64,000 bases of DNA from Squalus acanthias. Taxonomy: Eukaryota. A program made the translations under genes and the position numbers. The stretch spans positions 62,310,001 through 62,374,000 of the forward strand of contig CM059441.1 in the NCBI GenBank assembly GCA_030390025.1, given 5' to 3'. Shown piece by piece: positions 4,249-61,149 of the stretch. Under the pieces are notes generated by a model that was not told where the DNA came from, ran no database searches, and worked only from the letters and a program-made list of their open reading frames with translations. Within the stretch, counting starts at the first letter, position 1, and each line of letters opens with the position of its first letter.

Positions 4249-4286
4249 TTTTATTTTTTGCTCTCTTGAAACCTCCCCCCCACTAA

Positions 4287-11977: not shown

Positions 11978-12017
11978 TTTCCTCATTTGACTCACAGTCA
12001 ACACTTTCTTTATAAAT
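11978..12017 (+). promoter_or_regulatory. Candidate core promoter of the Siglec-like gene: ETS/PU.1-like site, AP-1 site and TATA box
   Basis: TTTCCTCATTT (reverse complement AAATGAGGAAA) 11978-11988, TGACTCA 11988-11994 and TATAAAT 12011-12017. They sit in non-repeat sequence ~90 bp upstream of a strong donor (CTGG|GTAAGT), and the block is conserved in the inverted paralogue at ~60900-61000. Confidence 0.55.
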
Positions 12018-12039
12018 ACACAGAGCAGCACAGGAAGAG

Positions 12040-12104
12040 GTCATTGGTGCCCAGCACTGCGTGTCAGCAATTACTCTCCAGGCGAGCAGTCGGACAGGCC
12101 CTGG
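12040..12104 (+). other. Siglec-like gene exon 1 (5' UTR, non-coding; start approximate)
   Basis: Consensus donor GTAAGT at 12105-12110; TATA box ~25-30 bp upstream of the inferred start; homologous to paralogue 60825-60890. Confidence 0.55.
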
Positions 12105-12327
12105 GTAAGTAACGGAACGATTGTAATTCACTTCCATGACCAACGTCTTCCTTTTTTGGTGTTGTGAGTTTATAAAGACAGATTCCAATGATTGATGCCT
12201 TCTCAAGATTTCTACTTATTACTGAGATCTGGGCTTAGGGCTGAAGTCTGTTGTGCAGGACATCTTTCTAGTTCAAGGAACAAGGGAAGTCCAGAGACTT
12301 GAGCACAAGGCCGAAGCACCCAGGGCT

Positions 12328-13312
12328 TGTACTGAGGGAGCGCTGCACTCTCGGAGGGGCAGTACTGAGGGAGCGCTGCACTGTCGGAGGGGCAGTACTG
12401 AGGGAGTGCTGCCCTGTCGGAGGGGCTGTACTGAGGGAGCGCTGCACTGTCGGAGGGGCAGTACTGAGGGAGTGTTGCACTGTCGGAGGGGCAGTACTGA
12501 GGGAGTGCTGCCCTGTTGGAGAGGCAGTACTGAGGGAGTGCTGCACTGTCAAAGGGGCAGTACTGAGGGAGCGCTGCACTGTCGGAGGGGCTGCACTGAG
12601 GGAGTGCTGCACTGTCAAAGGGGCAGTACTGAGGGAGCGCTGCACTGTCGGAGGGGCAGTACTGAGGGAGTGCTGCACTGTTGGAGGGGCTGTACTGAGG
12701 GAGTGCTGCACTGTCGGAGGGGCAGTACTGAGGAAGTGCTGCCCTGTCGGACAGGCAGTACTGAGGGAGTGCTGTACTGTCGGAGGGGCAGTACTGAGGG
12801 AGTGCTGCCCTGTCGGAGAGGCAGTACTGAGGGAGTGCTGCTCTGTCAGAGGGGCAGTACTAAGGGAGCGCTGCACTGTCGGAGGGGCAGTACTGAGGGA
12901 GTGCTGCACTGTCGGAGGGGCTGTACTGAGGGAGTGCTGCACTGTCAGAGGGGCAGTACTGAGGGAGCGCTGCACTGTAGGAGGGGCAGTATTGAGGGAG
13001 CACTGCACTGTGGGATGGGCAGTACTGAGAGAGTGCTAAACTGACAGATGGGCAGTAATGAGGGAGCGCTGCACTGTCGGAGGGGCAGTACTGAGGGAGT
13101 ACTGCACTGTTGGAGGGGCTGTACTGAGAGAGTGCTGCACTGTTGGAGGGGCAGTACTGAGGGAGTGCTGCACTGTTGGAGGGGCAGTACTGAGGGAGTG
13201 CTGCACTGTCGGAGGGGCTGTACTGAGAGAGTGCTGCACTGTCGGAGGGGCTGTACTGAGAGAGTGCTGCACTGTTGGAGGGGCAGTACTGAGGGATGCT
13301 GCACTGTCGGAG
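12328..13312 (+). repeat. 33-bp minisatellite (~30 units, AGTACTGAGGGAGTGCTGCACTGTCGGAGGGGC) expanded inside a Deu-SINE (12290-13635) in Siglec intron 1
   Basis: Unit read directly; the array runs straight into the SINE body GGTGCCGTCTTTCGGATG. Confidence 0.95.
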
Positions 13313-13828
13313 GTGCCGTCTTTCGGATGGGAAGTTAAAGTGAGGCCCTGTTTGCCCTCTTAGCTGAACCTAAAAGGTCCCATGGCACTAATTGGAAGAA
13401 AAGCAGGGGAGTTCTCCCCGATGCCCTGGGGCCAATATTTATCCCTCAACCAGCATCACTGAAAACCAGACGACCTGGTCATGATCACATTATATTTGTG
13501 GGAGCTTGCTGTGCGCAAAATGGCTGACACCTTTCCTACATTACAACAGTGACGACACTTCAAAAAGTACTTCATTGGCTGTAAAGCGCTTTGGGACGTC
13601 CTGAGGTAGTGAAAGCCGCTATAGAAATGCAAGTTTTTCTTTCTTAAAGCCTTGTAACTCACTGCAGAGCACCTATCATCCCACGTTGAATCAATTTGTC
13701 CGTGAAGACATTGTCTGAAAGCAATTTTGATCTCTCGAGCGCTATTGGGCAAGAGGTGAGGTCTCATTAACTCCTTTCTGTTTCAGGTATTGAGAGTGAG
13801 AAGTTGATGAAATATCTGAGAGCGGACA

Positions 13829-13868
13829 ATGATCAGGATATCTTACTGCCTCCTGTCACTTTTCCACG
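13829..13868 (+). CDS. Siglec-like gene exon 2 coding part: signal peptide MIRISYCLLSLFH (exon spans 13787-13868)
   Basis: Acceptor ctcctttctgtttcag ends at 13786. ATG in ACAATG context. Donor G|GTAATA, phase 1, joins in frame to the V-set exon (..FH-A-VLSEEW). Confidence 0.8.
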
Positions 13869-17066: not shown

Positions 17067-17493
17067 AAAGTGTGCCAAGCAGACTGAATCAGCCTAGCCA
17101 ATCAGATGGGTTGCAGACCAAACAAGAAGGTTTTAAATAGTGATTCATAATGGAGAAAATGGCGTGAGTTCTGATGGTTTCCAATCCATTGTTCCTGCAT
17201 TGTAATTCAGCGCAGAATATATCTCCATTGGTGGGTCTTTTAGGCTTTGTGTTGGGTTGAAGACTTGCTTCACTAAACAGGGTCCTGAGGTCCTTGAGTC
17301 AATATAGAACATACTTTTCCACTCCCATGTCCAGGATTCCCTTTCATCTGTTGAGTAACCTTGGTGAGTTCCTTGTTTGTCCTGTAGATGGTACACACTG
17401 CAGCCACAGTGCGCCAATTGCAGAGGGGCTGAAGATCGAGTCTAGTGGAGCGAAAAGCCATCCAGTGCTAAATATTGATATTTTTCTCCTCAG

Positions 17494-17859
17494 CTGTATT
17501 GTCAGAAGAGTGGAAAGGCAACACTCCACGAGATGTGAAAGCACAGGAAGGTTTGTGTGCACAGATTCCATGTCATTACAGTTATCCATCGAGTCTGGCA
17601 AACCAAACACGAGTTGGAATCTGGTATAAAAATGAGAGACGGATATTATGGTCTGTAGCCTTTCACTCCAAGTATCACAATCAGTCGCCACAGTTACGAC
17701 ATCGGATCCGGCTGTCTGGAGACCTGAAAGATGGCGACTGTTCACTGATTATAAACAACATCACACAGCAAGATGCAGGTCCTTATTATTTCAGGATAGA
17801 ATTTTCTGATAACAAGGGTAGCTACAGCTACAAACCTGACACACTGCTTCAAGTTTCTG
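17494..17859 (+). CDS. Siglec-like gene exon 3: N-terminal V-set sialic-acid-binding Ig domain
   Basis: 366 nt, phase 1-1, tttttctcctcag / GTAAGT. EEW..AQEGLCAQIPCHYSYP...GDCSLII...DAGPYYFRIE...YSYK shows the Siglec GLC/PC/CSL cysteines and the F-strand Arg (AGG 17793-17795). Confidence 0.93.
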
Positions 17860-18141
17860 GTAAGTGCTGTGTTATAATTACTCAATAATTCACGTTCAAC
17901 AGTCAATGGGAAATAACATCAACTGTGGCGGTTACATATTAACACAAAACACAGCTTATTATAATGCAGCGTCTGATTATCAATATCCTGGTGATATCTT
18001 CCACTTCAGTCCTAAAGCATCCTCTAATACTCACTTTATTATAATGATTGAATGTCTTGACTGTGTCCATCAATGTTATCAGGTTATCAACTCCCATCTA
18101 TCTCTCTAATCGTGTTTAAATTCTGACATATAGACAAAGTA

Positions 18142-21100
18142 AAGAACATAAGAACATAAGAAATAAGAGCAGGAGTAGGCCATACGGCCCCTCGAGCCTG
18201 CTCCGCCACTCAATAAGATCATGGCTGATCATCGACCTCAACTCCACTTTCCCGCCCGATCTCCATATCCCTCGATCCCATGGAGTCCAAAAATCTATCT
18301 ATCTCAGCCTTGAATATACTCAAAGTCTCAGCATTCACAGCCCTCTGGGGTGGAGAATTCCAAAGATTCACAATCCTCTGAGTGAAGAAATTCCTCCTCA
18401 TCTCAGGCTTAAATGGCCGACCCCTTATCCTGAGACTATACCCGCTAGTTCTAGACACTCCAGCCAGGGGAAACAGCTACTCAGCATTTACCCTGTAAAT
18501 CCCCTTCAGAATCTTGTATGTTTCAATGAGATCACCTGTCATTCTTCTAAACTCCAGAGAGCATAGGCCCATTCTACACAATCTCTCATCATAGGACAGC
18601 CCTCTCATCCCAGGAATCAATCTAGTGAACCTTCGTTGCACTGCCTCCAAGACAAGTTAATCCTTCCTCAGATAAGGAGACCAAAACTGTGCACAGTACT
18701 CCAGGTGTGGACTCACCAAGGCCCTGTACAATTGTAGCAAGATTCCTTACTCTTATACTCCAACCCCTTTGCAATAAAGGCCAACATGCCATTTGCCTTC
18801 CTTAGTGCTTGCTGTACCTGCACGCTAGCTTTCTGTGTTTCTTGCACGAGGACACCCAAATCTCTCTGAACACCAACATTTGAAAGTTTCTCACCATTTA
18901 AAAATTATTCTGTTTTTCTATTCTTCCTACCAAAGTGAATAACCTCACATTTCCCTACATTATGCTCCATCTGTGACCTTACTGCCCACTCACTTAGTCT
19001 ATCTACAGCCCTTTGCAGACTCTTAGGGCTGGATTTTAACAGCCCTGAGGAGGCGGGTTTGGAGGCGGAACTGCTGGCAAAATCAAAAAGAACGGGAGCG
19101 GGTCCCGAACCCACTCCCAACCCGCCTCCAAACAATTTTCCCGGGAGTCGGGTCCCCAATTTGCGCCTGGGACTCGACTCCTAGTGGCAGGAAGTGGATT
19201 ATAGCCACTTAACTGCCTGTTAACAGTGGCTTTTTCCCATTTTGAGACTTCTGCTGCGGGCTTCCCGATGTCAGGGAATCCCGCCAGGGTACGTGAGGCG
19301 TGCTGTGGGTCTGTTGTAATGTTTGCGTATAGATGACAGATGCAGAAGTGGTATGCAGGATCCAATGGGACACTGGTGAGTATCAGAGGAAAGGAGATGT
19401 TGGGAAAGTCATTTTTAATGTGTTAAGATTTTTCTGTAGTTGACAAGTTTTGAAGTGTTTGTGTGGCCTCACCTCATTGGGAGAAGTGACAGATCGCTTC
19501 TGTAAACTCATCTGTAGCTGCCATCTGTTTTATCCTGAGGAGAGCCTGGGTACAAGGGCTTACCTTTGTACAGTGATTGCCAGTGTTTGACAGCACCTCA
19601 TGCTGTCAAACACTGACATATCCTCTGTCAAAAATAAGTGCTACATGTCCCTTTAAGAAAACCGGCAGATGAAGTGTCATCAACTGACTTCATCTAACAC
19701 CGGCTTTCCCTTAATCGGCCAGCAAGCCCGCAGGGCGGGCTTAACAAGGCCAATCAGGGGAAAATAACGTCTGTGCGTCAGGCATCGCTGGGGGCGGGAC
19801 TAGAACCCGGACGGCAGCAGTCCCGCCCCCAACTTGTCTCGGCAGGTAAAATCCAGCCCTTTGTGTTCTCCTCATAGCTTCCTGTCCCAACTAGCTTTGT
19901 ATCATCAGCAAACTTGGATACATTACACTCGGTCCCTTCATCTAGGCCATCAATATAGATTGTAAATAGCTGAGGCCCCAACACTGATCCTTGCGACACC
20001 CCACTAGTTACAGCCTGCCAACCTGAAAAAGATCCTTTTACACCTACTCTCTCTTTTCTGTCGGCTAACCAATCTTTTATCCATGCTACTATATTACCCC
20101 CAACCCCATGAGCCCTAAACTTGTGTAATAACCCTTTATGTGGCACCTTGTCGAATACCTTTTGGAAATTCAAATATATTAAATCTACTGGTTCCCCTTT
20201 ATCTACCCTGCTAGTTACATCCTCAAAAAACTCTAAAATATTTGTCAAACACGATTTCCCTTTCATAAAACCATGTTGACTCAGTCTAATCATGTTATGT
20301 TTTTCTAAGTGCCCTGATACCACTTCCTTAACAATGGAGTCCAGCATTTTCCCGACGACTGATATCAGGCTAACTGGCCTGTAGTTCCCTGTTTTTTTTC
20401 TCCCTCCTTTCTTGAATAGCAGTGTTACATTTGCTACCTTCCAATCGATTGGGACCTTTCTAGAATCTAGGGAATTTTGAAAGATCAAAACCAATGCATC
20501 CACTATCTCTTCAACCACCTCTTTTAGAACCCTAGGATGCAGGCCATCAGGTCCAGGGGATTTGTCGGCTTTTAGTCCCATTAATTTGTCTAATACTTGT
20601 TCTCTACTTATATTAATTATGTTAAGTACCTCACCCTCATTAGAACCTTGGTTCCCCACTATTTTTGGTATGCTTTTTGTGTCTTCTACTGTGAAGACAG
20701 ATACAAAAAATTTGTTTAACGTTTCTGCTATTTCCTTATTTCCCATAATAATTCCTCCTGTCTCAGCCTCTAAGTGACCAATGTTTACTTTTGCTACTCT
20801 CTTCCTTTTTACATACTTATAGAAGCTCTTACAGTCTGCTTTTATATTTCTTGTTAGTTTTCTCTCATTCTATTTTCCCCTTTATATAAAATTTTTGGTC
20901 AACCTTTGCTGGTTTCTGAAAGTCTCCCAATCCTCAGGCTTACTATTATTCTTTGCCACATTATGAGCTTCTTTCAATCCAATGCTTTCCTTAACATCTT
21001 TAGTTAGCCATGGTTGGATCACTTTGGCTGTGGAGTTTTTGTTTCACAAAATTAAAGCAAAACTCTATCATATTATGATCACTCTGCCCCAGAGGATCCT

Positions 21101-21465
21101 TTACTATGATATTGCTAATTAACCCTGACTTATTACACAATACAATATCTAAAATAACCTGTTCCCTGGTTGGTTCCATGACATATTGTTCTAGGAAACT
21201 GCCCCGAATGCATTCCATGACCTCGTCCTCCAGACTACCTTTGCCAATTTGATTTGTCCAGTCTATATGAAGATTAAAGTCCCCCAAGATTATTGCATTA
21301 CCTTTGTTGCAAGCTCCTACTATTTCTTGATTAATATTCTGCCCAACAGTATAGCTACTGTTGGGGGACCTATATACTACCCCTACCAGTGTTTTCTGAC
21401 CCTTGTTATTCCTTATCTCCACCCATACTGATTCTACTTCCTGATCTTCTGAGCTGAGATCCTTG
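18142..21465 (-). mobile_element. 5'-truncated, degraded CR1 split by a MITE
   Basis: Tail aagaacataagaacataag at 18142; RT ORF 19860-20746 (FADD); endonuclease piece 21060-21422. Confidence 0.9.
19026..19859. mobile_element. Harbinger-type MITE
   Basis: Perfect 13-bp TIR GGGCTGGATTTTA; 3-bp TSD TTA/TTT; interrupts the CR1 RT. Confidence 0.88.
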
Positions 21466-22450
21466 CATTTCTATAGTGTTCTTCATGACCGCAGGATGTC
21501 CCGATGCGCTTAACAGCCAAAGAAGTACATTTCAAGTGTAGTCACTCTTGCAATGTAGGAATCGCAGCAGCCAAATTGTGCACAGCAAGCTCCCACAAAC
21601 ATCAGTGAGGTAAATGACCAGATCATCTGTTTTAGTAGTCGGTTGAGGGATAAATGCAAATTGTTTTGGTCCTGCTGAGTACAGGATATAATTTAACAAA
21701 GGCAGAGATCGTTGAGAAAGTGAGGTTCCGAGGTGTGACTTGCTCCTCCACCCCCTCCCATTATTGGCAATTCAAGGGTCTCGGAGTGAAAGTGCTTTAA
21801 GCACAATGACAGACACTCAGCCAAGCCTGAAAATAGGAAAGTACTTTCTCTAACATCGTTACAGGGAGTAACACAGATTAACACAGATTAACACAGAGTT
21901 ACATCGAGAGTTACAAACAGGCCATTCGGCACAACTGGTCGATGCTGGTGTGTATTCTCCACACGAGCCTCCTCCCACCGCCCTTCATCTCACCCTATCA
22001 GCATATCCTTCTATTGCTTTTTCCCTCATGCACCTCTCTAGCTTCCCCTTCAATGCATCAGTGCTATTAGCCTCAATCACTCCCTGTGGGAGCAAGTTTC
22101 ACATTCTCACCACTCTCTTGGTAAAGAAGTTTCTCCTGAATTCCATGATGGATTTATTAGTGACTATATTATATTGATGACCCCTAGTTCTGGTCTCCCC
22201 CAACAAGTGGAAACATCTTCTCTACGTCTACTCTATCAAACACCTTCATCATTTTAAAGACCTCTGTTAGGCCACCCCTCAGCCATCACTTTTCACGAGA
22301 AAAGACCCCCAGCCTGTTCAGTCTTTCCTGATCATTATAACCTTGGCTATCATCTTTGTAAAAATAGTTTCGCTTGCGGGACGATGATTTCTATTTGAAC
22401 TGATGCTTCATGTTATATTTATCTAAAAGGATCCATTCTCTGTGTGTTAG

Positions 22451-22744
22451 TTTTCACAGATAAACCCACGATATTCCCTGCTGAAATTATTGAAGGAAAG
22501 CATGTGGACGTAAGCTGCACCTTCAACACCACGTGCAAGGGAACAGCACCTGTCTTAACCTGGGTCAAACCCGCTGACATACCCGGGTCAGTCTCAAACA
22601 GTGTAACTCAGCATGGCATCACTCTGACATATACTGCTGTTCTGACCCTGATCCCATCAGTAAAACACCACGGGAAAACTCTTACCTGCAGAGTCAGATA
22701 TCCATCTGTTTCATCTGAGCGGACCCTAGCACTAACTGTGCAAC
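22451..22744 (+). CDS. Siglec-like gene exon 4: C2-set Ig domain 2
   Basis: 294 nt, phase 1-1, donor C|GTAAGT. FTDKPTIFP..SCTFNTTCKGTAPVLTW...HHGKTLTCRV has the extra Cys that pairs with the V domain in Siglecs. Alternative in-frame start at 22460. Confidence 0.92.
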
Positions 22745-22829
22745 GTAAGTACGGACATCCTTTATTCTACATTACACATAATAGTCTACATTGCGCAAAG
22801 CAAGATCCCACAAACAGCAATTTTAAAAA

Positions 22830-25165: not shown

Positions 25166-25516
25166 ATCACATGTTTTTATTGATAAATGTTGATCAGGAC
25201 ACTGGGGAGAACACTTCTTTGAATAGTGTCACGGGAACGTTTATGTCCATCTGAGAGCGCAGACGGGGCCTCGGTTTAACATGTTATGCAAAAGACGGAA
25301 CCTCCAAACAGTGCAGCACTCCCCTAGTACTGCCACCCCGACAGTGCAGCACTTCCTCAGTACTGCCCACCGGCAGTGCAGCATTTCCCTGGTACGACCC
25401 CTCCGGCAGGTCAGTGCTCCCTTAGTACTGCAGTAAATTGTCTGCCTGGATTACGTGCTTTGTGACGAAGAAAGTTGCATTGATATAACAGTTAACTGAT
25501 CTTTATTTTTTTTTAG

Positions 25517-25798
25517 ACGCACCACGGAATCTCTCAATTACTTCCCTTGATACGATTAAAGATTCATCGATCAATATAAAAGAAGGGAATTCTGCAGTGA
25601 TACTCTGCTCTGTCACAAGCTTCCCAGCTTCTAACCTGACATGGCGACATCTTGGTCTCACAATGAACAGAACAACATCCAACAATGAGCTGTGGTTGGA
25701 GTTTGCTAATGTTACATCCAGGATCACTGGAGACTATCAGTGTGTGGCTGAGAATGAACATGGAGCAGTGGGGAGGACCATAACCATCACTGTGGAAC
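25517..25798 (+). CDS. Siglec-like gene exon 5a: C2-set Ig domain 3 (copy 1)
   Basis: 282 nt, phase 1-1, poly-T tract then AG / GTGAGT. HAPRNLSI...ILCSVTSFPASNLTW...GDYQCVAENEHG. Confidence 0.9.
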
Positions 25799-25846
25799 GT
25801 GAGTGTACAGATACTTTCACATCTCTCTAAATGCAAAAAAAATAAT

Positions 25847-27737: not shown

Positions 27738-30009
27738 CACCCAGAGTACATTCTGTGCCCTAGTGACCCTCAATTCTTCTTCAAAGTGGTGTTCAACATG
27801 GAGGAGTACTGATTCATCAGCTGAGGGAGGGCTGTAGGTGGTAATCAGCAGGAAGTTTCCTTGCCCATGTTTGACCTGAAGCCATGAGACTTCATGAGGT
27901 CCGGAGTCAATGTTGAGGACTGCCAGGGACACTCCCTCCCGACTGTATACCACTGTGCCGCCACCTCTGGTGGGTCTGTCCTGTTGCTGGGATAGGACAT
28001 ACCCAAGGATGGTGATGGAGGAGTCTGGGACATTGGCTGAAAGATATGATTCTGTGAGTATGACTATGTCAGCTGTTGCTTGACAAGTCTGTGGGACAGG
28101 TCTCCCAATTTTGGCACAAGGCCCCAGATCTTAGTGAGGAGGACTTTGCAGGGTCCAGATCACATGTTTTTATTGATAAATGTTGATCAGGACACTGGGG
28201 AGAACACTTCTTTGAATAGTGTCACGGGATCGTTTATGTCCATCTGAGAGCGGAGACGGGGCCTCAGTTTAACATGTCATGCGAAAGTTGGCACCTCCAA
28301 ACAGTGCAGCACTCCCTTAGTACTGCCCCCCGACACTGCAGCACTTCCTCAGTACTGCCCCCCGACATTGCAGCATTTCCCCGGTACTACCCCTCCGACA
28401 GGTCAGCGCTCCCTCAGTACTGCAGTAAATTGTCTGCCTGGATTACGTGCTTTGTGATGAAGAAAGTTGCATTGATATAACAGTTAGCTGATCTTTATTT
28501 TTTTTTAGATGCACCACGGAATCTCTCAATTACTTCCCTTGATACGATTAAAGATTCATCGATCAATATAAAAGAAGGGAATTCTGCAGTGATACTCTGC
28601 TCGGTCAGAAGCATCCCAGCTTCGAACCTGACATGGCGACATCTTGGTCTCACAATGAACAGAACAACATCCAACAATGAGCTGTGGTTGGAGTTTGCTA
28701 ATGTTACATCCAGGATCACTGGAGACTATCAGTGTGTGGCTGAGAATGAACATGGAGCAGTGGAGAGGACCATAACCATCACTGTGGAACGTGAGTGTAC
28801 AGATACTTCCACATCTCTCTAAATACAAAAAAAATAATGGCCCGTAATTTCCGACAGGAAGCTTCCTGCGTGCGGATGCCTCCTATCGGAAAAAAATCTA
28901 CGCTCTTACCTGAGGGCTCCCGAAGTCGGGACACTTCCGATCCTGGGCCTGTCCACAGTCGAAATGCGCAGGGCCCACGTATCCCAGGGGCACAGGCGGT
29001 TCGCAAGCGTCCCTGGGATCACGTGGGCCAGGGCAGCCAATAGGAGAAGGGAATCTCCCTTCATACATTTGACAGATAGACCCGTCAAAAGTATGAATGG
29101 AGATCACCCCAAAAGACACTAAAACATTAAATACATTTTTAAAAAACCATCACGTTTTTAAAATGAGTTAAAATTACATTAAATTAAATATTTTAAACAA
29201 AAATTTAATTTTTTGAAAAAAATAATTTAAGTTTTTTACGGGGCTAAAACTAAACTTACCTTTTTTAAAAGTATTTTAAAATTATAAATGAGTGAAAAAA
29301 TTTTTTTTAACTTCTTTTCAACTCTTATGCTGGTAAAAGCAGGCCTTACACTTTTTTCACGCATAAGATTTCTAAGGGTTTTCTGTGGGCGGAGTTTCTG
29401 CAGAAAGCGGAACTCTCCCCCCGCAGAGGCCCTTCTCCAGGGCAGGCGTCCGATCTGTCTAGAGCATTCTTGACAGATCGGAAATGCTGATTTTCAGTGC
29501 ATCCGCTTCGCATGCCTGAAACCGGCATTTCCGATGTCCCTGCGGGTGTGTACACAGCACATACACACCCTTAGGCGACGGAAAATACGGGCCAATATCT
29601 AATGGAGACTGTGCAATTTACCAAGCCTATGACACACACTCACACGCATATAAACACACTCATACACTCTCTGTCTCTCCTCTCTCTCCATCTTTAAGAT
29701 GACCTTTGAAACCTACCTCTTTTACCAAGCTTTCGGTCACCTGTCTGAATATCTCCTTATGTGGCTCGGTGTCAATTTTTGACTGAGCGTCTTAAAGGAG
29801 GAGAGAGAGGCGGAGAGGCTTAGGGAGGGAATTCCAGAGTTAAGGCCTAGACAGCTGAAGGCACAGCCGTCAATGGTGGAGCGAAGGGAATCGGAGATGC
29901 ACAACAGGCCAGAATTGGAGGAATGCAGAGATCTCGGAAGGTTGTCGGACCGGAGGAGATTAAAGAGATAGGAAGGGGGCGAGGGCCATGGAGGGAACTG
30001 AACACGAGG
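27738..30009 (+). repeat. Segmental tandem duplication, copy 2 (contains exon 5b)
   Basis: Starts CACCCAGAGTACATTC and ends AACACGAGG, as does copy 1. Confidence 0.95.
28509..28790 (+). CDS. Siglec-like gene exon 5b: C2-set Ig domain 4 (tandem duplicate of exon 5a)
   Basis: 282 nt, intact splice sites, open frame; 6 nt differences from exon 5a. Confidence 0.85.
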
Positions 30010-30211
30010 ATGAGAAATTTAAATTCGAAGTGTTTCCGGACTGGGAGCCAATGTAGGTCAGCGAGCAACAGGGGGTAATGGGTGAGCGGAACTTAGGACA
30101 TGTGGCAGCAGGGTTTTCAGATTAATTGTAGTTTACAGAGGGTTGAAGATGGGAGAGCCGTCCAGGAGAGAGTTGGACTTACCTGCTGACTCTCCTCTGG
30201 TCTTGTTCCAG

Positions 30212-30487
30212 ATCCACCCAAGGAGACGACAGTGGCCATCAGCGGAGCCACGGGCGGAATAAGAGAGGGAGACAACATCATGTTAACCTGCTCCAGTGAA
30301 AGCGTCCCTCCGGCATCTAGTTACGCCTGGTTCAGGGTCGACGGAAACACGACCACTCAGTTAAACACAAGTGCTCGGTCCATCTACTCCGGTCACCTAA
30401 CACGGGCGAATGATGCCGGTTTCTATTGCACAGCGAGGAACCCATTGGGTAACGGCACGTCCACCATTGTACACCTGAGTGTGGAAT
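30212..30487 (+). CDS. Siglec-like gene exon 6: C2-set Ig domain
   Basis: 276 nt, phase 1-1, ttgttccag / GTAAGT. HPPKETTVAI...MLTCSSESVPPASSYAWF...DAGFYCTARNPLG. Confidence 0.92.
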
Positions 30488-30684
30488 GTAAGTAGTTTAC
30501 TCTATCTGACTCTTATTTAAACTCAGGCACTTCCTGTCTGTGAAAAGCTTACTTCTTGTCGTCACATTTCCAGTGTGCACTTTTCTCGTTATGTCCGGTG
30601 TCCACAGTTATAATGGTAACTGCCTATGTTAATGTCACACTTAATTCTTGCGTGCTGGACCGGTTCCTGATTGGGCCAGGGATC

Positions 30685-31880
30685 CTAGAATCATAAAATG
30701 ATACAGCACAATCGGAAGCCATTCTTTGAAAGAGCTATCCAATTAGTTCCACTCTCTTTCCTCATAGCCCTGCAAAATTTTGCCACTTCTAATACTTATC
30801 CAATTATCTTTGGAAAGTTACAATTGGATCTGCTTTCACTGCCTTTCGAGATCTTAACAACTGCCGAAAAAAAAATTCTTCTCATCTCACCACTGGTTCT
30901 TTTGCCAACTACCTTAAATCTCTGTCCTTTGGTTAAAACCCTTCTGCCATTGGAAACAGTTTCTCCTTATTTACTCTGTTAAAACCCTTCATGATTTAAA
31001 CACCTCTATTAAATCTCCCCTTAACCGTCTCTGCTGTAAGGGGAACAACCCCAGCTTCTCCAGTTTCTCCACGTAACGGAACTCCCTCATCCCTGGTACC
31101 ATAGAGTCATAGAATCATAGAAATTTACGGCAGAGAGGAGGCCATTCGGCCTATACTGTCTGCGCCGGCCTAAAAAGAGCTATCTAGTCTAATCCCACTT
31201 TCTAGCTCTGGGTCCGTAGCCTTGTAGGTTACAGCAGTTCAGGTGCATATCCAAGTTCTTTTTAAATGTGATGAGGGGTTCTGCCTCTACCATCCTTTCA
31301 GTCAGTGAGTTCCAGACCCCCACCACCCTCTAGGTGAAAAGAATTCTCCTCAACTCCCCTCTATTACTTTAAATCTATGCCCCATGTTTATTGACCTTGC
31401 TGCTAAGGGAAATAAGTCCTTCCTATCCACTCTATCTGGGCCCCTCATAATTTTATACACTACAATTAAATCTCCCCTCAGCTTTCTCTGTTCCAAAGAT
31501 AACAACCCCAGCCTATCCAATCTTTCCTCATAGCTAAAATTCTCCAGTTCTGGCAACATCCTCTTCAATTTCCTCTGTACCTTCTGTAGTGTAATCACAT
31601 TGTTCCTGTATTGTGGTGACCAGAACTGTACGCAGTACTCTAGCTGTGGCCTAACTCGTGTTTTATACGTTTCTAGCATAACCTCCCTGCTCTTATATTC
31701 GATGCCTCTGTTAGTAAATCTCTTCTGCACCCTCTCTAAGGCCTTCCTAAAGCATGTGGTGACCAGAATTGGACACAATATTCTAGCTGAGGCCGAACCA
31801 ATGATTTACCAGAGGTTTAGCAATAATGTCCTTGCTTCTGTACTTTCTGCCTCTATTTATAAAGCCAAGGATCTCATCAT
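30685..31880 (-). mobile_element. Nested CR1 3' fragments
   Basis: VRPQLEYCVQFWSP remnants and two tagaatca-type tails. Confidence 0.8.
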
Positions 31881-32234
31881 ATAGAGATGAAGTGGATTAA
31901 CAGATAATGCACGGTCCTTGCGATCTCCTGTACTGGCTTTCGATCGCCTGAGGGTGTTAGAGAGGAGTTTCCCAGCGTATTTTCTTTCCCTTATTGGCCC
32001 TGGGATTTTATCTCTGAATTTTAAGTCTCTCCCAGGAGATTACATGTCTGTGGGGGGAACGAGGAGGATGAAGTGTCTAGGCATGAGGCTCCAGACATCA
32101 TGAGCGTCTGGGGGTGGGGGTCGGTGGGGTGGGGGGAACTGATGGACCAGCTGGGGTCTCGCTGCCCACCCCACCTCCCCGGTCATTATCGTACGAAACG
32201 CGCTGATGCTGGGTGAGGTGCCCGCATCGTTACA

Positions 32235-32820
32235 ACAGCAACAACTTGCATTTATATAGCGCCTTTAACATACTAAAATGTCCCACGGCACTTCACAGAA
32301 GCGTTATCAGACAAATTTGATAGCAAACCACATAAGGGGATATTAGGGCAGATGACCAAAAGCTTGGTCAAAGAGATAGGTTTTAAGGAGCGTCTAAAGG
32401 AAAGAGAGAAAGACGCAGAGAGGTTTAGGGAGGGAATTCCAGAGCTTAGTGCCTAGGTAGCTGAAGGCACAGCCGCCAATGGTGGAGCGGTTAAAATCGG
32501 GGATGAGCAGAAGGCCAGAATTGGAGGAGCGCAGAGATCTCGGAGAGTTGTAGAACTGGATGATGTTACAGAGATAGGGAGGGGCGAGGCCATGGAGGGA
32601 TTTGAAAACAAGATTGAGAATTTTAATATCGAGGCGGAGGTGGACCGGGAGCCAATGTAGGGCAGCAAGCACAGGGGTGATGGGTGAATGAGACTTGGTG
32701 CGAGTTAGGATACAGGGCAGCAGAATTTTGGATGAGCTCAAGTTTACGGAGGGTGGAAGATATGAGGCCGGCCAGGATTGCATTGGAATAGTCAAGTCTA
32801 GAGGTAAGAAGAGGGTTTCA
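32235..32820 (-). mobile_element. L2-clade LINE 3' fragment
   Basis: ITPVLAALHWLPV...SLHGLAPPYL...LWNSLP; tail ending tatataaatgcaagttgttg. Confidence 0.85.
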
Positions 32821-32890
32821 GTGTTAGGATTCTATCTTACGGTCTAACAGTGCTACGACATTGCCTAATTTGTTGTTCTTACTCCCTCAG

Positions 32891-33184
32891 ATAAGCCAGA
32901 GATTTCCCGGGAGTCGGAATGCACACGGACGGCCAAGGGTGTCACCTGCCTCTGCGTGGCCAGATCCAACCCGCCCGGAGACCTCACCTGGCACCTTCCC
33001 CTCGCTAACGTCAGCGCCAAGCAAACAAGCGGCCATTTCGTGACGTGGCGGGTCAGCGACGGGCAGCTGGTGAATGGCTCCCTGACCTTGACGGGTCGCG
33101 AGGGTGAGGAGGAAGCGACGGTCTTCTGCTCAGTTAGAAACCAGCATGGAGAAGCCATGTTCAAGGTGTACCTGTGGGCCAAAG
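32891..33184 (+). CDS. Siglec-like gene exon 7: membrane-proximal Ig domain (MAG Ig5/CD33-related type, CxC motif)
   Basis: 294 nt, phase 1-1, actccctcag / GTGAGA. YKPEISRESECTRTAKGVTCLCVARSNPPGDLTW...FCSVRNQHG. Confidence 0.92.
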
Positions 33185-33349
33185 GTGAGAGCAGTTTTCA
33201 CGATCGCTCTCAATTCAGGTGCCTAGATCCTTAAGTTCTGGAATTCCCTCCCTCAACCTCTCCGCCTCTCTCTCTCCACTTCCTTTAAGACGCTCCTTTA
33301 AAGCTATCTCTTTGACCAAGGTTTTGGTCATCTGTCCTAATGTGATATG

Positions 33350-35300
33350 TGATAAGGGCATCTTCATAAAGGTTGACAGGGTAGATAGAGAGAAACCATT
33401 TACCCTGTTGGGGGGAGTCCAGAACTAGGGGGCATAACCTTAAAATTAGAGCTAGGCCGTTCATGGGTGATGTCAGAAGCACTTCTTCACACAAAGGTTA
33501 GTGGAAATCTGGAACGCTCTCCCCCAAAGAGATATTGATCTCGGGGGTCAATTGAAAATGAAAATAGGCTGCACAAACTCGGGTTATATTGAAGTACTGT
33601 GTTCAGTTCTGAGCACCACAATTTAGGAAGGATATATTGGCCTTGGAGGGATTGCAGTGTAGATTTACCAGAATGAAACCTGGAATCAAAGGGTTATCTT
33701 ACGAGGATAGGTTACACAAACTAGGGTTGTATTCCCTGGAATTTAGATGGTTAGGGGTAATTTGATTGAAGTTTTCAAGATATTCTGTGGAACAGACAGG
33801 GTAGATAGAGAGAAACTATTTCCGCTGGTTGGGGAGTCCAGGACTAGAGGACATAGCCTAAAAATTAGAGCCAGGCCTTCAAGGAGTGAAGTTAGGAAAC
33901 ACTTTAACACACACAAAGGGTGGTCGAAGTTTGGAACTCTCTTCTGCAAATGGTCAATTGTTATTTTTAAATCTGAGATTGATAGAATTTTGTTAACCCA
34001 AGGTATTAAAGATATAGGGCAAGGCAGGTATATGGAGGTAGGGCACAGATCAGCCATGATCTCGTTGAATGGCAAAAAAAGCTCAAGGGGATGAATGACC
34101 TGCTCCTGTTCCTATGTTCCTTCCTATGGTCCTATGTGGCTCGGTGTCAAATTTTGTCTGATTTATGCTCCTGTGAAGCACCTTGGGAAGTTTTACTATG
34201 TTAAAGGTGCTATATAAATGCAAGTTGTTGTTGTCTGATACAAATCAGCTGATTGTTGCATCACTTAGAGCAGAATTGTCCCAGGGATGAGGGATTTCAG
34301 TTACAGGGAGAGACTGGAGAAGATGGGGTTGTTCTCTTTAGAGCAGAGAAGATTAGGGGAGATTTAATAGAGGTGTTCAAAATCATGAAGGGTTTTGATA
34401 GAGTAGATAGGGAGAAACTGGAGGCTGACTAATATTACATCTTTAGATATTACATATATAGTTATTACATAAATTGATTTTATACATAAATGTTTCACAG
34501 TAAAGGAAGACTTACATTTATATAATGCTTATATAGTCCCAAAACACTTTACAGCCAATGAAGTACTTTTGAAGTATAGTCACTGTTGTAGTGTAGGAAA
34601 CATGATCGCAAATTTGCGCACAGCAAGATCCCACAAACAGCAACGTGATAATCACCAAATAATCTGTTATTTTAGTAATGTTATATATATAAACATATAT
34701 AGATATTACATATATAAAATGGTTCACTAATATTTCTTTAGAGAATGTACCTTGCTGTCATTACCCCGTCTGGGCCTATATGTGACTCCAGTCCCACACC
34801 AACGTGGTTGACGCTTAACTACCCTCTGAAGTGGCCACTCAGTTTGTATCAAACCAACTACCAGCACCTCATGGAATCATAGAATCATAGAATCGTTACA
34901 GCACAGTAAGAGGTCATTCGGCCCATCGAGCCAGTGTCTGCTCTCTGCAAGAGCACTTCAGCTAGTCCCCATCCTCCGTCCTCTCCCGTAGCTCTGCAAA
35001 TTTTTTTCATTCATTTACTTACCTAATTCCCTTTTGAAAACCATGATTGAATTTGCTTCCACCACCCTTTCAGGCAGTGCATTCCAGATCATAACCACTC
35101 ACTGCGTAAAAAAGTTTTTTCTCATGTCGCCTTTGGATCTTCTGCCAATCGCCTTAAATCTATGTCCTCTGGTTCTCGACCCTTCTGCCAATGGGAACAG
35201 TTTCTGTCTATCTACTCTGTCCCACCCCCTCATGATTTTGAACACCTCTATCAAACTCCTCTCAACCTTCTCTGCTCTAAGGAGAGCAACCCCAGCTTCA
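33350..35300. mobile_element. Cluster of CR1, L2 and SINE fragments in both orientations
   Basis: Repeated RGDLIEVFKIM.G.DRVDREKLFPL remnants at 33747, 34340 and 35099. Confidence 0.75.
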
Positions 35301-35484
35301 AGAAGATGTCCCACCACCACCTTCTCAAGGGACAGCTAGGGTAGGGCAATAAATGTCGGCCTTGCCAGCGGTGACCACATCCCGAGAATGAATTGCCAAA
35401 AATTGAGCGAGTGCTTCACTTCTCGAGGTACATCGGAGCATTGTTCTAAAACTGTACTGCAGTAATTAATGGCTGTTTTTACAG

Positions 35485-35581
35485 GTAGAGACTCCAATAA
35501 ATGGCAAGTAGGATTGCTTGTAGCTGGGATCATGTTGAGTGTTGAACTGGCTGGATTCTTAACCTTCAAGTGCATGAGAAA
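35485..35581 (+). CDS. Siglec-like gene exon 8: transmembrane segment GRDSNKWQVGLLVAGIMLSVELAGFLTFKCMRK
   Basis: 97 nt, phase 1-2, gtttttacag / GTAAGT. Hydrophobic stretch followed by basic stop-transfer residues. Too short for the ORF track; translated by hand. Confidence 0.85.
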
Positions 35582-35949
35582 GTAAGTGCGAAGGTTTAAC
35601 TTTTTTTTTTATCAAAGTCTTTACTTCAATCTTCCCTCCTTAAGTCAGTGATTGGTTAAGCACCAGACGCCACTCCCATAAGTGATCCCTGTGTCCCCTA
35701 CAATCTGGAGTGTGTCTTTCACGGCCCAGTATCCAGGTGAACGCTAACGAGACCCAGAGATCCCTCACTATGCACGCTGGCTGCTGGATTGTATCAGGTC
35801 ATCTTGTGATTCGACAACACCACAGGGACCACATTTCGATAAACAATTGATTGTCTGTGGAGCACTGTGGGATGTCCTGAGGATGTGAATAAATTCCTGC
35901 ACATTCGTATGTTCTATTTCTCTCTGATTTAGATTCACAAGTATGATAC

Positions 35950-36750
35950 CAGTACTGAGAGGTTATAACGATCAGGAAAGACTGAACAGGCTGGGGCACT
36001 TTTCTTTAAAAAAGAGAAGACTGAGGGGCGACCTGATCGAGGTCTTTATGATTATGAAGGGGTTTGATAGGGTAGATGTAGAGAAGATGTTTCCACTTGT
36101 GGGGTAGACTAAAACTAGGGGTCATCAATAGTCGCTAATAAATCCAATCGGGAATTCAGGAGAAACTCTTTACCTAGAGAGTGGTGAGAATGTGGAACAC
36201 ATGGAGTGGTTGAGGCTAATAGCGTAGATGCATTTAAGGGGAAGCTAGATAAGTACATGAGGGAAACATGAATAGAAGGATATGTTGATAGGGTTAAATG
36301 AAGAGGGATGGGAGGAGGCTCTTGTGGAGGATAAATCCGGCATGGACCAGTTGAGCCAGTTAAGGGGAGATTCAACAGAGGCGTTCAAAATCATGAGGGG
36401 TTTTGATAGAGTAAATAAGGAGAAACTGTTTCCACTGGCAGGAGGGTCGGTAACCAGAGGACACAGATTTACCGTCACTGGCAAAAAAGCCAGAGAGGTA
36501 GATGAGGAAAAATATTTTTACACAGCGAGTTGTTCTGATCGGGAATGCACTGCCTGAAAGGGCGGTGGACGCAGATTCAATAGCAACTTTCAAAAAGGGA
36601 TTTGGATAAATACTTGAAAAGGAAACATTTTCTGGGCTATGGGGAAAGAGCAGGGGGCAGTGGGATTAATTGGAGAGCTCCTTCAAAGACCCAGCACAGG
36701 CACGATGGGCCGAATGGCCTCTTTCTGTGCTGTGTGATTCTATGATTCAA
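35950..36750 (+). mobile_element. Two tandem CR1 3' fragments
   Basis: ORF2 C-terminal remnants; tail gattctatgatt at ~36740. Confidence 0.8.
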
Positions 36751-36878
36751 TGTATGTGGACAGAAGCGATTTAAAGAAACAGCCCAGTAGTTGCTGTAAT
36801 GTTACAGTGGGGTCTGGGTCTGTCCTGCACTGACACGCTGATATATGATAACCACAGTGCGATATTCTGCTATTTCAG

Positions 36879-36957
36879 GAGAAAGGCAGCGACTGAGAGA
36901 GATTCACAGACCAGTGACATTGCAATGACCGACTGTCCACTCTCCGCACAGCACCAG
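36879..36957 (+). CDS. Siglec-like gene exon 9: juxtamembrane cytoplasmic exon (RKAATERDSQTSDIAMTDCPLSAQHQ)
   Basis: 79 nt, phase 2-0, tatttcag / CAG|GTACAG; phase bridges the TM exon and the last exon exactly. Confidence 0.8.
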
Positions 36958-37140
36958 GTACAGGAATTGTTTCCGTTTAGACCGAAGCCTCAATCTCAGC
37001 GTGTAGACAACACGTGTCGGAGATTCCCAGTTGGGTTGTCCATTAATTTCTGCCTATGGTGTCAGCCGTGGCTCAGTGGGTTTAGCACTCTCTCTCTCGC
37101 CTCTGAGTCAGAAGGTCGTGGGTTCGAAGTCCCACTCATT

Positions 37141-39409: not shown

Positions 39410-39456
39410 CATTCCAAAGACTTGAGCCCCATAAGCCAGGCCGACACTCTCAGTGC

Positions 39457-40642
39457 CAGTACTGAGGGAGTGCTGCCCTGTCGTAGGGGCTGTACTGAGG
39501 GAGCGCTGCCCTGTCGTAGGGGCTGTACTGAGGGAGCGCTGCCCTGTCGTAGGGGCTGTACTGAGGGACTGCTGTCCTGTCATAGGAGCTGTACTGAGGG
39601 AGTGCTGTCCTGTCGTAGGAGCTGTACTGAGGGAGTGCTGCCCTGTCGTAGGAGCTGTACTGAGGGAGTGCTGTCCTGTCGTAGGGGCTGTACTGAGGGA
39701 GTGCTGCACTGTCGGAGGGGCAGTACTGAGGGAGTGCTGCACTGTCGGAGGGGCAGTACTGAGGGAGTGCTGTACTGTCGGAGGGGCAGTACTGAGGGAG
39801 CGCCGCACTATTGGAGGGGCAGTACTGAGGGAGTGCTGCTCTGTCGGAGGGGCAGTACTGAGGGAGTGCTGCACTGTCGGAGGGGCAGTACTGAGGGAGT
39901 GCTGCACTGTCGGAGGGGCAGTACTGAGGGAGCGCCGCACTGTCGGAGGGGCAGTACTGAGGGAGCGCTGCACTGTCGGAGGGGCAGTACTGAGGGAGCG
40001 CCGCACTGTCGGAGGGGCAGTACTGAGGGAGTGCTGCACTGTCGGAGGGGCAGTACTGAGGGAGTGCTGCACTGTCGGAGGGGCAGTACTGAGGGAGTGC
40101 TGCACTGTCGGAGGGGCAGTACTGAGGGAGTGCTGCACTGTCGGAGGGGCAATACTGAGGGAGTGCTGCGCTGTTGGAGGGGCAGTAATGAGTGAACGCT
40201 GCAGTGTTTTAGGGGCAGTACTGGGGGACCACTGCACGGTTGGAGGGGCAGTACTGAGTGCGCGCTGCAGTGTTAGCGAGGCTGTATTAAGGGAGTGCTG
40301 CACTGTCGGAGGGGCAATACTGAGGGAGTGCTGCGCTGTTGGAGGGGCAGTACTGAGGGAATGCTGCACTGTCAGAGGGGCAATACTGAGGGAGTGCTTC
40401 GCTGTTGGAGGGGCAGTAATGAGTGAACGCTGCAGTGTTTTAGGGGCAGAACTGGGGGAGCACTGCAGTTTTGTAGGGGCAGTACTGGGGGAGCACTGCA
40501 CAGTTGGAGGGGCAGTACTGGGGGACCACTGCACGGTTGGAGGGGCAGTACTGAGTGAGCGCTGCAGTGTTGGCGAGGCTGTATTAAGGGAGTGCTGCAC
40601 TGTTGGAGGGGCTGTAGTAAGGGAGTGCTGCACTGTCAGAGG
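39457..40642 (+). repeat. 33-bp SINE-derived minisatellite (~36 units) within a Deu-SINE (39410-40925)
   Basis: Same unit as 12328-13312, with locally clustered variants. Confidence 0.95.
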
Positions 40643-40968
40643 TGCCTTGTTCACATGAGACGTTAAACCGAGGGCTTCATCTGCCCTATCAGATGGATGC
40701 AAAAGGTGCCACGGCCACTATTTCAAAGAAGAGCAGGGGAGTTCTCCCCGATGTCCTATGGCAAATATTTTTCCCTGAAACAAGATCAGTTAAAAAAAAA
40801 CAAATGATCTGGTCATCATCACATTGCTGTTTTTGAGAACTTGCTGTGCGCAAATTTTCTGCCATGTTTCCTCAATTACAACAGTGACTACACTTCAAAA
40901 GTGCTTTGGTACGTCTTGAGGGTGTGAATTATGGGTCTCAAGTCTCTGGAGTTGGACTCGAATCCATC

Positions 40969-42022
40969 GGCTGGAATTTCCCCCCAGAATAACGGGTGGG
41001 TTCGGAGCGTGGGTGCAGTTAAAAATGGGATTCCAGACCTGATCTGGCCTCCATCCGCCCACTTCCGGTTTTGACGGAGGCGGGAAGGGGGTGGGACGGG
41101 CTGCGGGTGACCAATCTGCTCCCAGGGGGTGGTACGTCAATTTAAATATTATAATGAGGCTGGAAGCCTCTTTTTTAACCGCCATTTTGTGTTCAACTGC
41201 TTGTGGATGGGTGAAACCCGGCAGTAAAACCAAGGCGGGGACTGCTGCATCCAGGAAGTAAGCGGCTTTATACCGACCTCCTGAATCCAAGGTCCCTACC
41301 TACCCCACCCAGCACGATCGGAGACCCCCTCACGAGGCCTCTGATCGCCTTCCCAGGCCTCCGATCCCCACCCCCACTGGCGATGCTGAGGCCGGCCCCG
41401 ATCCTCTCTCCCACCCTGCCGAACCCCCTTTCCCCCACCGACTGCCGATCCCTGACACCAGCCCCTCCACCCCGCGATTCCTGCCCTGCATCTGAGGCCT
41501 ACCCGCCGGCTACCGATCCCCAATCCCCCGCCCCCCGTCGACCCCTCGGCCCCCCTCCCGCCAATCCACGATCCCTGACTGCCGCCCGCCCCCTCAATCC
41601 CTGACCATGCCAATCCCCGACAATCCTCCCGCAATCCCCGACCATGCTGATCCCCGACCCCCCATCCCCCCCCACCCGCGATCCCCGATTGCAGACTGCT
41701 GACCCCCCGCTCCCCTCGCGATCCCCGACTACGGACCCCCCCTGCCCCCACCGATTCCCGACTGCAGATTCCCCGACCGCCCCCGGACAATTCTACCCCA
41801 GGACCAACCGCTCGCTCCTTCTCTGCATCTGAGGCCTACCCGCCCGCAGCCAGCCAGTCTCTCAAGCTGGCTGGCTGCGGGCGGGATTCCAAGGCCTCAC
41901 ATGCAAATCAGGCCCTGCCATTAAAGTCGGCAGAGCCTGTGGGAAACCCAGGCCTCCTGGGTGTCCCGCCCACCTCGGAGGTCCCCCGCCCCCAACACGC
42001 CTACCTGGAGAAATTTCCGGCC
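40969..42022. mobile_element. Harbinger-type non-autonomous element with C-rich low-complexity core, inserted in a SINE head
   Basis: TIR GGCTGGAATTTC / GAAATTTCCGGCC, TSD ATC/ATG; the flanks rejoin to the SINE B-box region. Confidence 0.75.
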
Positions 42023-42355
42023 ATGATCTTCTGGCTCAGAAGTGAGAGAGAGAGAGAGAAAGTGCTGCCCACTGATCCATGGCTAACACTAGTGAGACAC
42101 TGGAATAATTTAACCCTCTCAGCCCCGTTCTTTCATCGCCGCTGGTTCAAAATCCTGGAACTCCCTCCCTACCAGCACTGTGGGAGTACCTTCACCACAG
42201 GGACTGCAGCGGTTCAAGAAGGCAGCTCACCACCACCTTCTCGAGGGCAATTAGGGATGGGCAATAAATGCTGGCCTTGCCAGCGACGCCCACATCCCAT
42301 GAACAAATAAAAAAAATTGATGTGAGACTATCTTGTGCTTCCATTTTCTTTGTAG

Positions 42356-42598
42356 GGTACGCAGAGCGCTGTGGTTGTTGACCCCTGGAATACAACCAGT
42401 GACGCAACTAGCGAGGCGAAGAAACCAGCTCCCCAAGATTTCTCTGAAGGTCCGGCGGGAAAAGATGCTGGACATGGACAACCAGATAAGCACGAGGACC
42501 TTCTGTATGCCAACATCAACTTCTTGAAGCTGCCCAGTGGTGACGGGACAGTCCACCGGGGCGAAGTCACGGAATACGCACGGATCAGATTCCAGTGA
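42356..42598 (+). CDS. Siglec-like gene exon 10: cytoplasmic tail with ITIM (LLYANI) and ITSM-like motif (TEYARI), stop TGA
   Basis: Acceptor ttttctttgtag ends at 42355, phase 0. EDLLYANINF and TEYARIRFQ* match the two-tyrosine tail of CD33-related Siglecs. Confidence 0.9.
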   Translation, partial: GTQSAVVVDPWNTTSDATSEAKKPAPQDFSEGPAGKDAGHGQPDKHEDLLYANINFLKLPSGDGTVHRGEVTEYARIRFQ

Positions 42599-61146: not shown

Positions 61147-61149
61147 AAG

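What the first reader, a model, noticed from the sequence alone, without database searches (positions are those of the whole stretch)
11978..42598. Complete 750-aa Siglec-type receptor with a CD33-related binding site and tail on a MAG-like ectodomain, in a probable shark genome
Seen: ten phase-consistent coding exons (40+366+294+282+282+276+294+97+79+243 = 2253 nt) buried in ~30 kb of mostly transposon-derived sequence. The V-set has the A-strand Trp, GLC/PC/CSL cysteines, essential Arg (YYFR) and a G-strand YSYK as in CD33. The last Ig domain has the C..CxC pattern of MAG Ig5, and the tail has ITIM plus TxYxxI. Known: this tail defines inhibitory CD33-related Siglecs, whereas MAG lacks an ITIM. 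Inference: a chondrichthyan inhibitory sialic-acid receptor that may link MAG and CD33-related Siglecs and is likely auto-annotated as MAG-like or CD22-like.
Basis: partly seen in the sequence, partly recalled or inferred. Interest (0 to 1): 0.78.

Follow-up and report, generated by a model that had tools for sequence, protein, structure and literature searches.

The report
Shark inhibitory Siglec from expanded family
This is an intact shark gene for a sialic-acid-sensing immune brake receptor, one of many similar copies across sharks and rays, some of which look like its activating twins, which hints that the fast-evolving paired Siglec system known from mammals is much older.

Summary
The gene model holds: ten GT-AG coding exons give a 750-aa Siglec (V + C2 + four Ig, TM, ITIM LLYANI, TEYARI), 77.5% identical end to end to a sawshark RefSeq-type protein. 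It is not a lone MAG/CD33 chimera. It belongs to an elasmobranch multigene family (17 species held) with ITIM, YxNV and short-tailed Arg-TM members, a variable C-C' loop and variable stalk length. Two premises fail: fish and coelacanth MAG do have ITIMs, and the C..CxC domain also occurs in Siglec-10-type and teleost Siglecs. V+C2 trees put the family beside tetrapod CD33-related Siglecs and away from CD22, but no MAG, Siglec-1 or Siglec-15 sequence could be included, so its place relative to MAG is open. Most likely a leukocyte inhibitory lectin in a paired-receptor cluster; binding, signalling and tissue are inferred, not shown.

The parts
11978..12104 (+). Probable promoter (TTCCTC at 11979, TGACTCA at 11988, TATAAA at 12011) and non-coding first exon; donor GTAAGT at 12105
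   Evidence: Sequence; 14 relatives' models match this stretch; 85% identical inverted copy at 61059-60671. Reading the motifs as ETS/AP-1/TATA is recalled, untested
13787..13868 (+). Signal-peptide exon; main ATG 13829 (A at -3); out-of-frame upstream ATG at 13807 opens a 65-codon overlapping uORF
   Evidence: the same out-of-frame start is translated in models P0079 and P0084
17494..17859 (+). V-set Siglec domain: W20, C35, C40-C96, essential R114 (codon 17793-17795), Y124/Y126
   Evidence: Pfam V-set 48.5 bits, Ig_CD22 35.9; top 17 PDB rows all Siglecs; AF2 pLDDT 87.5, best folds sialoadhesin, MAG, CD33, Siglec-7
22451..22744 (+). C2-set domain 2 with C158-C215 and extra C164 (inferred partner of C35)
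   Evidence: C2-set_2; MAG and CD33 best in PDB
25517..25798 (+). Ig3, first copy, inside duplicated block 24742-27009
28509..28790 (+). Ig3', second copy, inside block 27735-30009; 3 synonymous and 3 non-synonymous differences from the first
30212..30487 (+). Fifth Ig domain (MAG Ig4-like position)
   Evidence: paralog-to-MAG alignment
32891..33184 (+). Membrane-proximal Ig with C524, C533, C535, C593 (C..CxC)
   Evidence: Best PDB hit MAG Ig5, E 2.6e-12; motif widespread in Siglecs
35485..35581 (+). Transmembrane exon with mid-helix Glu632 (35544-35546)
36879..36957 (+). First cytoplasmic exon
42356..42598 (+). Last exon: ITIM LLYANI (42500-42517), TEYARI (42569-42586), stop TGA
59059..61147 (-). 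Decayed inverted 5' end of a paralog: promoter and non-coding exon (donor GT>GA) and signal exon (deletion removes the main ATG, donor GT>GA); no Ig exon for it in the window
   Evidence: blastn 81.6% over 669 nt and 82.3% over 339 nt; no other exon hits

Best explanation
An intact type I membrane Siglec that acts as an inhibitory leukocyte receptor in an elasmobranch-expanded, birth-and-death, paired-receptor gene cluster. Inferred mechanism: R114 pairs with the sialic-acid carboxylate, W20 and the G-strand Tyr pack against the sugar, and the variable C-C' and F-G loops set linkage preference. On clustering, Src-family kinases phosphorylate Y721 (ITIM) and Y744, which recruit SHP-1/SHP-2 and dampen activation. 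Short-tailed Arg-TM paralogs with near-identical binding domains give the opposite signal. The stalk was recently lengthened by duplication of one Ig exon. Shown: gene structure, motifs, family, duplication, fold. Inferred: binding, signalling, tissue.
For: Intact ORF, 77.5% to P0033. 79 of 149 candidates were hits, all named from sharks or rays. Among 100 of 279 held proteins with V >=47% identical (query included; isoforms and fused models not removed): 24 ITIM+TEY tails, 14 C-terminal YxN[VIL], 8 short-tail Arg-TM; Arg column R in 128 of 143 V domains; C-C' loop up to 3.5 bits. 4 of 8 Arg-TM proteins compared are 84-88% identical in V+C2 to an ITIM paralog. 13 of 25 proteins with a motif-matched Ig3 have 2-8 copies. 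Decayed inverted paralog head. Family clade 100/98 and 100/96; with two other shark subfamilies, tetrapod CD33r-like proteins and two teleost proteins it forms a branch apart from CD22 (99/94; 98/95 under the mixture model). RNA-guessed contigs start or stop at predicted exon edges (table 8: X22 records 20, 21; X18 record 8).
Against: No binding, signalling or tissue data. The 15 joints listed are all repeat joints, none at a predicted junction (2957 not shown); the runs are only guessed RNA and the contigs may be paralogs. MAG, Siglec-1 and Siglec-15 are absent from the trees. The V model's best folds are sialoadhesin and MAG (TM 0.72-0.76) ahead of CD33 (0.69-0.71); V-only chains tie (sialoadhesin 73.4, CD33 73.0 bits); whole-protein searches with paralogs rank MAG first. 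A mid-TM Glu is unusual for a plain inhibitory receptor.
Confidence: 0.72

Rival explanations
1. The family is the shark branch of MAG itself: an ITIM-bearing MAG was amplified in elasmobranchs, and this copy is a MAG co-ortholog working in glia or in blood cells.
For: MAG is the best PDB hit for whole paralogs (206.5 bits) and for the last Ig; teleost MAG has an ITIM and is expressed in blood cells (PMC7226832); family members share a contig length with CD22-like genes in 4 of 5 species where both were held, and mammalian MAG neighbours CD22 (recalled); no clear shark MAG turned up.
Against: Of six MAG residues conserved from fish to human, W22, R118 and Y127 have counterparts; Y65, N125 and T128 do not (read from the paralog-MAG alignment). 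V identity to MAG is 26-28%. The V+C2 profile prefers CD33 by 31 bits. A second five-Ig shark subfamily (P0238, P0224) keeps the MAG-like F-G spacing, though it is no clearer an ortholog (MAG 78, Siglec-5 80.5 bits). My lists could not reach MAG-level scores (list ends at 138 bits), so its absence says nothing.
Confidence: 0.15
2. The family split off before MAG and CD33-related Siglecs separated, so it is the sister of both and its paired-receptor layout arose independently in elasmobranchs. Function is as in the best explanation; only the ancestry differs.
For: Split affinities: V+C2 to CD33r, last Ig to MAG. The same layout (C..CxC last Ig, ITIM plus xEYxEI) occurs in teleost P0242 and hamster Siglec-10. 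Three shark subfamilies group together (92/84, 89/80).
Against: MAG evolves slowly (recalled), which alone would make its Ig5 the closer match. The branching sharks / teleosts / amphibians / turtles / mammals follows the species tree as one lineage.
Confidence: 0.3
3. A silent or decaying copy, or a model inflated by a false duplication of Ig3.
For: Repeat-dense locus; a LINE starts about 360 nt after the stop and the first AATAAA/ATTAAA is at 44271; a dead paralog head lies nearby; best DNA holders share only 0.58 of sampled words.
Against: No stop or frameshift in 750 codons; canonical splice sites; the two blocks differ by 6.5% overall but 2.1% in the exon; P0033 has the same six-domain layout.
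Confidence: 0.08

Closest known systems
Elasmobranch RefSeq/UniRef models named 'myelin-associated glycoprotein-like' or 'Siglec-10/12/13-like' (e.g. Pristiophorus P0033, P0044; Stegostoma P0081)
   Same: Same six-Ig layout in P0033, same tail motifs, 62-78% identity; P0033 and P0044 share the TM Glu
   Different: Only automatic names; this copy has its own recent Ig3 duplication (97% within, 85% to the nearest other copy)
Mammalian CD33-related Siglecs, especially Siglec-10/11 type and the Siglec-5/14 pair
   Same: QEGLC..PC V-set, essential Arg, C..CxC last Ig in the Siglec-10 type, ITIM plus TxYxxI-type tail, multigene paired layout, tree neighbour
   Different: About 31-34% V+C2 identity; six Ig domains; TM Glu; last Ig closer to MAG
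MAG / Siglec-4
   Same: Domain order once the duplicate is removed; Ig5 cysteine pattern; ITIM as in teleost MAG
   Different: Multi-copy and variable; lacks counterparts of Y65, N125, T128; V identity 26-28%
CD22
   Same: Siglec with ITIMs; probably the same chromosome in several rays
   Different: Sharks and rays have separate CD22-like genes (P0126, P0152); separated by a starred branch; 52 bits against the family profile

Membership tests
Siglec | N-terminal V-set with Siglec fold followed by a C2-set domain | tested here: met
Siglec | Essential F-strand Arg | tested here: met
   R114 aligns with the Arg of Siglec-5, -7, -10; R in 128 of 143 family V domains
Siglec | B-E intra-sheet Cys pair and V/D2 inter-domain Cys pair | tested here: met
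   C40/C96 and C35/C164 present and aligned; the bonds themselves are inferred
Siglec | Arg-dependent sialic-acid binding | not testable with these tools
   Needs a glycan array
CD33-related Siglec | ITIM plus distal ITIM-like motif | tested here: met
   LLYANI and TEYARI; not diagnostic, teleost MAG has an ITIM
CD33-related Siglec | Rapidly evolving multigene family with paired activating members | tested here: met
   (from predicted proteins only)
CD33-related Siglec | Monophyly with mammalian CD33r to the exclusion of MAG, Siglec-1, CD22 and Siglec-15 | tested here: inconclusive
   Excludes CD22; MAG, Siglec-1 and Siglec-15 not in the trees
CD33-related Siglec | Leukocyte expression; SHP-1/2 recruitment | not testable with these tools
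   Run tissues not on record
MAG (Siglec-4) ortholog | W22, R118, Y65, N125, Y127, T128 conserved from fish to human (PMC7226832) | tested here: not met
   3 of 6 have counterparts, read by eye
MAG (Siglec-4) ortholog | Five Ig domains; single conserved gene | tested here: not met
   Six Ig; up to 11 models per species
MAG (Siglec-4) ortholog | Conserved synteny | tested here: inconclusive
   No neighbouring non-Siglec gene seen in the window; no genome held; only contig-length co-occurrence with CD22-like genes
CD22 ortholog | Groups with CD22 | tested here: not met

The most novel reading that the evidence does not exclude
The shark family is the cartilaginous-fish branch of the CD33-related Siglecs. 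A fast-evolving, paired inhibitory/activating sialic-acid receptor cluster would then date to the last common ancestor of jawed vertebrates, against the published statement that fish lack CD33-related Siglecs. In its boldest form, the TM Glu of this sub-lineage lets an ITIM receptor pair in the membrane with an Arg-TM activating paralog, a coupling I do not know from other Siglecs (that step alone about 0.1).
Probability: 0.45. Interest if true: 0.62.

Novelty: new member of a known kind. Interest (0 to 1): 0.42.

Why it matters
The gene itself is one more Siglec whose close relatives are already in RefSeq under misleading automatic names. The value is at family level: sharks and rays appear to hold an expanded cluster with inhibitory, YxNV-tailed and Arg-TM members, variable ligand loops and variable stalk length. 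If the CD33-related placement survives adding MAG, it moves the origin of the paired 'self-sialic-acid' checkpoint to the base of jawed vertebrates and gives a clear set of proteins for testing it. It also shows that 'MAG-like' labels in shark genomes should not be read as myelin genes.

Tried and rejected
No whole genome was held, so synteny and copy number in this species are untested. Getting a MAG sequence for the trees failed three ways: the representative search listed only the best 150 of 2758 hits, a search with P0224 and a region search with P0115 returned none. Single-sequence AlphaFold failed (pLDDT 38.6). The run search listed no holder on record as RNA; laying four runs was swamped by repeats. 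Atlas search with the last Ig exon gave only generic Ig clusters. Alignment A4 included a non-V fragment and was dropped. No alternative Arg-TM exon and no further V or Ig exon was found in the window. No Rfam match. No earlier scan findings. Ten literature searches showed no paper describing a shark Siglec family; two key reviews were not held and subscription papers are not covered, so absence from print is not established. The 747-aa model with the 22460 acceptor was rejected on homology. No complex prediction was run.
Full report
Observation. The product aligns to a sawshark protein (P0033, 751 aa) at 583 of 752 columns with 3 gap columns, so the model is not chance. The start at 11978 is a promoter and non-coding exon whose donor follows 12104. 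At least 65% of the span is repeat-derived; the long neighbouring ORFs carry RT and endonuclease domains.

Anatomy. Signal peptide; V-set (W20, C35, C40, C96, R114, Y124, Y126); C2 with an extra C164; four more Ig domains, the last with C524, C533, C535, C593; 17 N-glycosylation sequons; a TM with Glu632; a tail whose only tyrosines are in LLYANI and TEYARI. The V exon's top 17 PDB rows are all Siglecs within 51-42 bits. An alignment-based AlphaFold model (pLDDT 87.5) matches sialoadhesin, MAG, CD33 and Siglec-7. Exons 4 and 5 sit in a tandem block (24742-27009 and 27735-30009, 93.5% identical) and differ at 6 of 282 nt, three of them synonymous. Without the duplicate the ectodomain has five domains. 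At 59059-61147 on the minus strand lies a decayed inverted copy of the gene's 5' end, both donors changed to GA and the main ATG deleted, with no Ig exon in the window.

Family. The V exon found 79 proteins among 149 candidates, all named from sharks or rays (16 species; Pristis added), with automatic names Siglec-10/12/13, MAG-like, CD33-like, CD22-like or sialoadhesin-like. Closest are Pristiophorus proteins (75-79%), which share the TM Glu; a squalomorph shark is a fair inference. Of 279 proteins held, 100 (query included; isoforms and fused models not removed, so these are not gene counts) have a V domain at least 47% identical: 24 have ITIM plus TEY-type tails, 14 end in YxN[VIL], 8 have a short tail and an Arg in the TM, 7 have the TM Glu. 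Four of eight Arg-TM proteins compared are 84-88% identical in V+C2 to an ITIM paralog, two 78%, one 68%, one gave no value. The essential Arg is kept in 128 of 143 V domains while the C-C' and F-G loops are the most variable parts. Ig3 copy number runs from 1 to 8 among 25 motif-matched proteins. This is the pattern described for paired receptors (PMC13358205, passages).

Placement. From 217 V+C2 segments I chose 55 rows (LG+G4) and 44 rows (mixture model); five mammal rows and two shark rows were labelled by motif or similarity, not by name. The family is a clade (100/98; 100/96). With two other shark subfamilies, tetrapod CD33r-like proteins and two teleost proteins it forms a starred branch apart from mammalian CD22 and shark CD22-like genes (99/94; 98/95). 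One search warned of long branches meeting in the CD22 side; one search gave no such warning. MAG, Siglec-1 and Siglec-15 are missing because no search returned them. Indirect scores are split: the V+C2 profile gives CD33 125.6, Siglec-5 106.3, Siglec-10 102.1, MAG 94.8, CD22 52.0, Siglec-15 48.1 bits; the last Ig gives MAG 37.3 versus Siglec-10 21.2 (PDB holds that domain only for MAG among the hits); fold search and Atlas features rank sialoadhesin or MAG first. A second shark subfamily leans more to MAG as a whole but not clearly in V+C2. Family members and CD22-like genes share a longest-contig length in Pristis, both Mobula species and Hemitrygon, not in Carcharodon; this is a weak proxy for linkage.

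Literature. PMC7226832 (passages and section 3.3.3) reports ITIMs in teleost and coelacanth MAG, calls the ITIM ancestral, lists six conserved MAG residues and states that fish genomes lack CD33-related Siglecs; 'shark' and 'cartilaginous' do not occur in its main text. Its supplementary MAG alignment was not read. bioRxiv 10.64898/2026.08.25.746757 (passages) names a macrophage-expressed zebrafish Siglec-like gene as a Siglec-10 analogue. PMC8455134 (one passage) dates Siglec families to the jawed-vertebrate ancestor. PMC7916940 and PMC9630641 (passages) added nothing on shark MAG. Lehmann 2004 and Bornhofft 2018 were seen only as cited. Ten searches listed no paper on a shark Siglec family; two reviews were not held. 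I recall, unchecked, earlier proposals that all Siglecs share one ancestral region and that CD33r genes derive from a MAG-like gene.

Expression. No holder is on record as RNA. Four of 24 listed runs were laid on 17400-37000. Repeats dominate and none of the 15 listed joints is a predicted junction. In the pieces table, RNA-guessed contigs stop at exon edges with unmatched letters beyond: 22606-22743 and 25517-25651 (X22), 32891-33182 (X18); another starts at 22452, inside the longer exon 3. One X18 piece runs into intron 5. This is a hint of splicing in this gene or close paralogs, with no tissue information.

Mechanism and verdict. Shown: intact gene, Siglec fold and residues, inhibitory motifs, multigene family with activating-type twins, recent stalk duplication, dead paralog head. 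Inferred from established Siglec biology (recalled): R114-dependent sialoside binding, Src-kinase phosphorylation of Y721/Y744, SHP-1/2 recruitment, leukocyte expression. Unexplained: Glu632. It works like an inhibitory CD33-related Siglec; membership of that clade is favoured but not proven; it fails the MAG and CD22 ortholog tests. New member of a known kind; interest 0.42.

Noticed in passing
window 59059-61147 (-): Decayed inverted 5' end of a Siglec paralog (promoter, non-coding exon, signal exon with broken donors and lost ATG), facing the intact gene; no downstream exons in the window.
   Followed up: yes
window 35544-35546: Glu in the middle of the TM helix, shared with five Pristiophorus proteins and one Mustelus protein; function unexplained.
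   Followed up: partly
P0002, P0025, P0027, P0048, P0058, P0061, P0086, P0089, P0092: Family members with an Arg-containing TM and almost no tail, candidate activating Siglecs in catsharks, white shark and bamboo shark.
   Followed up: partly
P0001, P0002, P0003, P0080: Models with 4-7 tandem V-set domains; may be real multi-V Siglecs or fused gene models.
   Followed up: no
window 13807: Out-of-frame upstream ATG giving a 65-codon uORF over the signal and V exons; in frame in some paralogs (P0003, P0007, P0086), out of frame in others (P0079, P0084).
   Followed up: partly
P0238, P0224, P0144; P0151, P0241: Two further shark Siglec subfamilies; the first has five Ig domains and, in Carcharodon, the same scaffold length as a CD22-like gene. 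A candidate divergent MAG, not confirmed.
   Followed up: partly
window 42960-45974 (+), 1301-5252 (-), 19781-20869 (-): LINE elements with endonuclease and RT; the one at 4290-5252 has a GDSL-esterase ORF1 (CR1-type by recall); one starts about 360 nt after the Siglec stop codon.
   Followed up: partly
window 55075-58159: Fragmented DDE_Tnp_4 (Harbinger-type) transposase on + with a possible partner gene on -.
   Followed up: partly
window 12329-13313, 39457-40642, 61306-61536; 61771-64000: 33-bp tandem arrays (30, 36 and 7 copies) in introns 1 and 9 and beside the relic; a 42-bp array of at least 53 copies at the window end.
   Followed up: no
P0128, P0106: Two teleost proteins (Scatophagus, Menidia) group with tetrapod CD33-related-like Siglecs (99/94 in both trees), also at odds with the statement that fish lack them.
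   Followed up: partly
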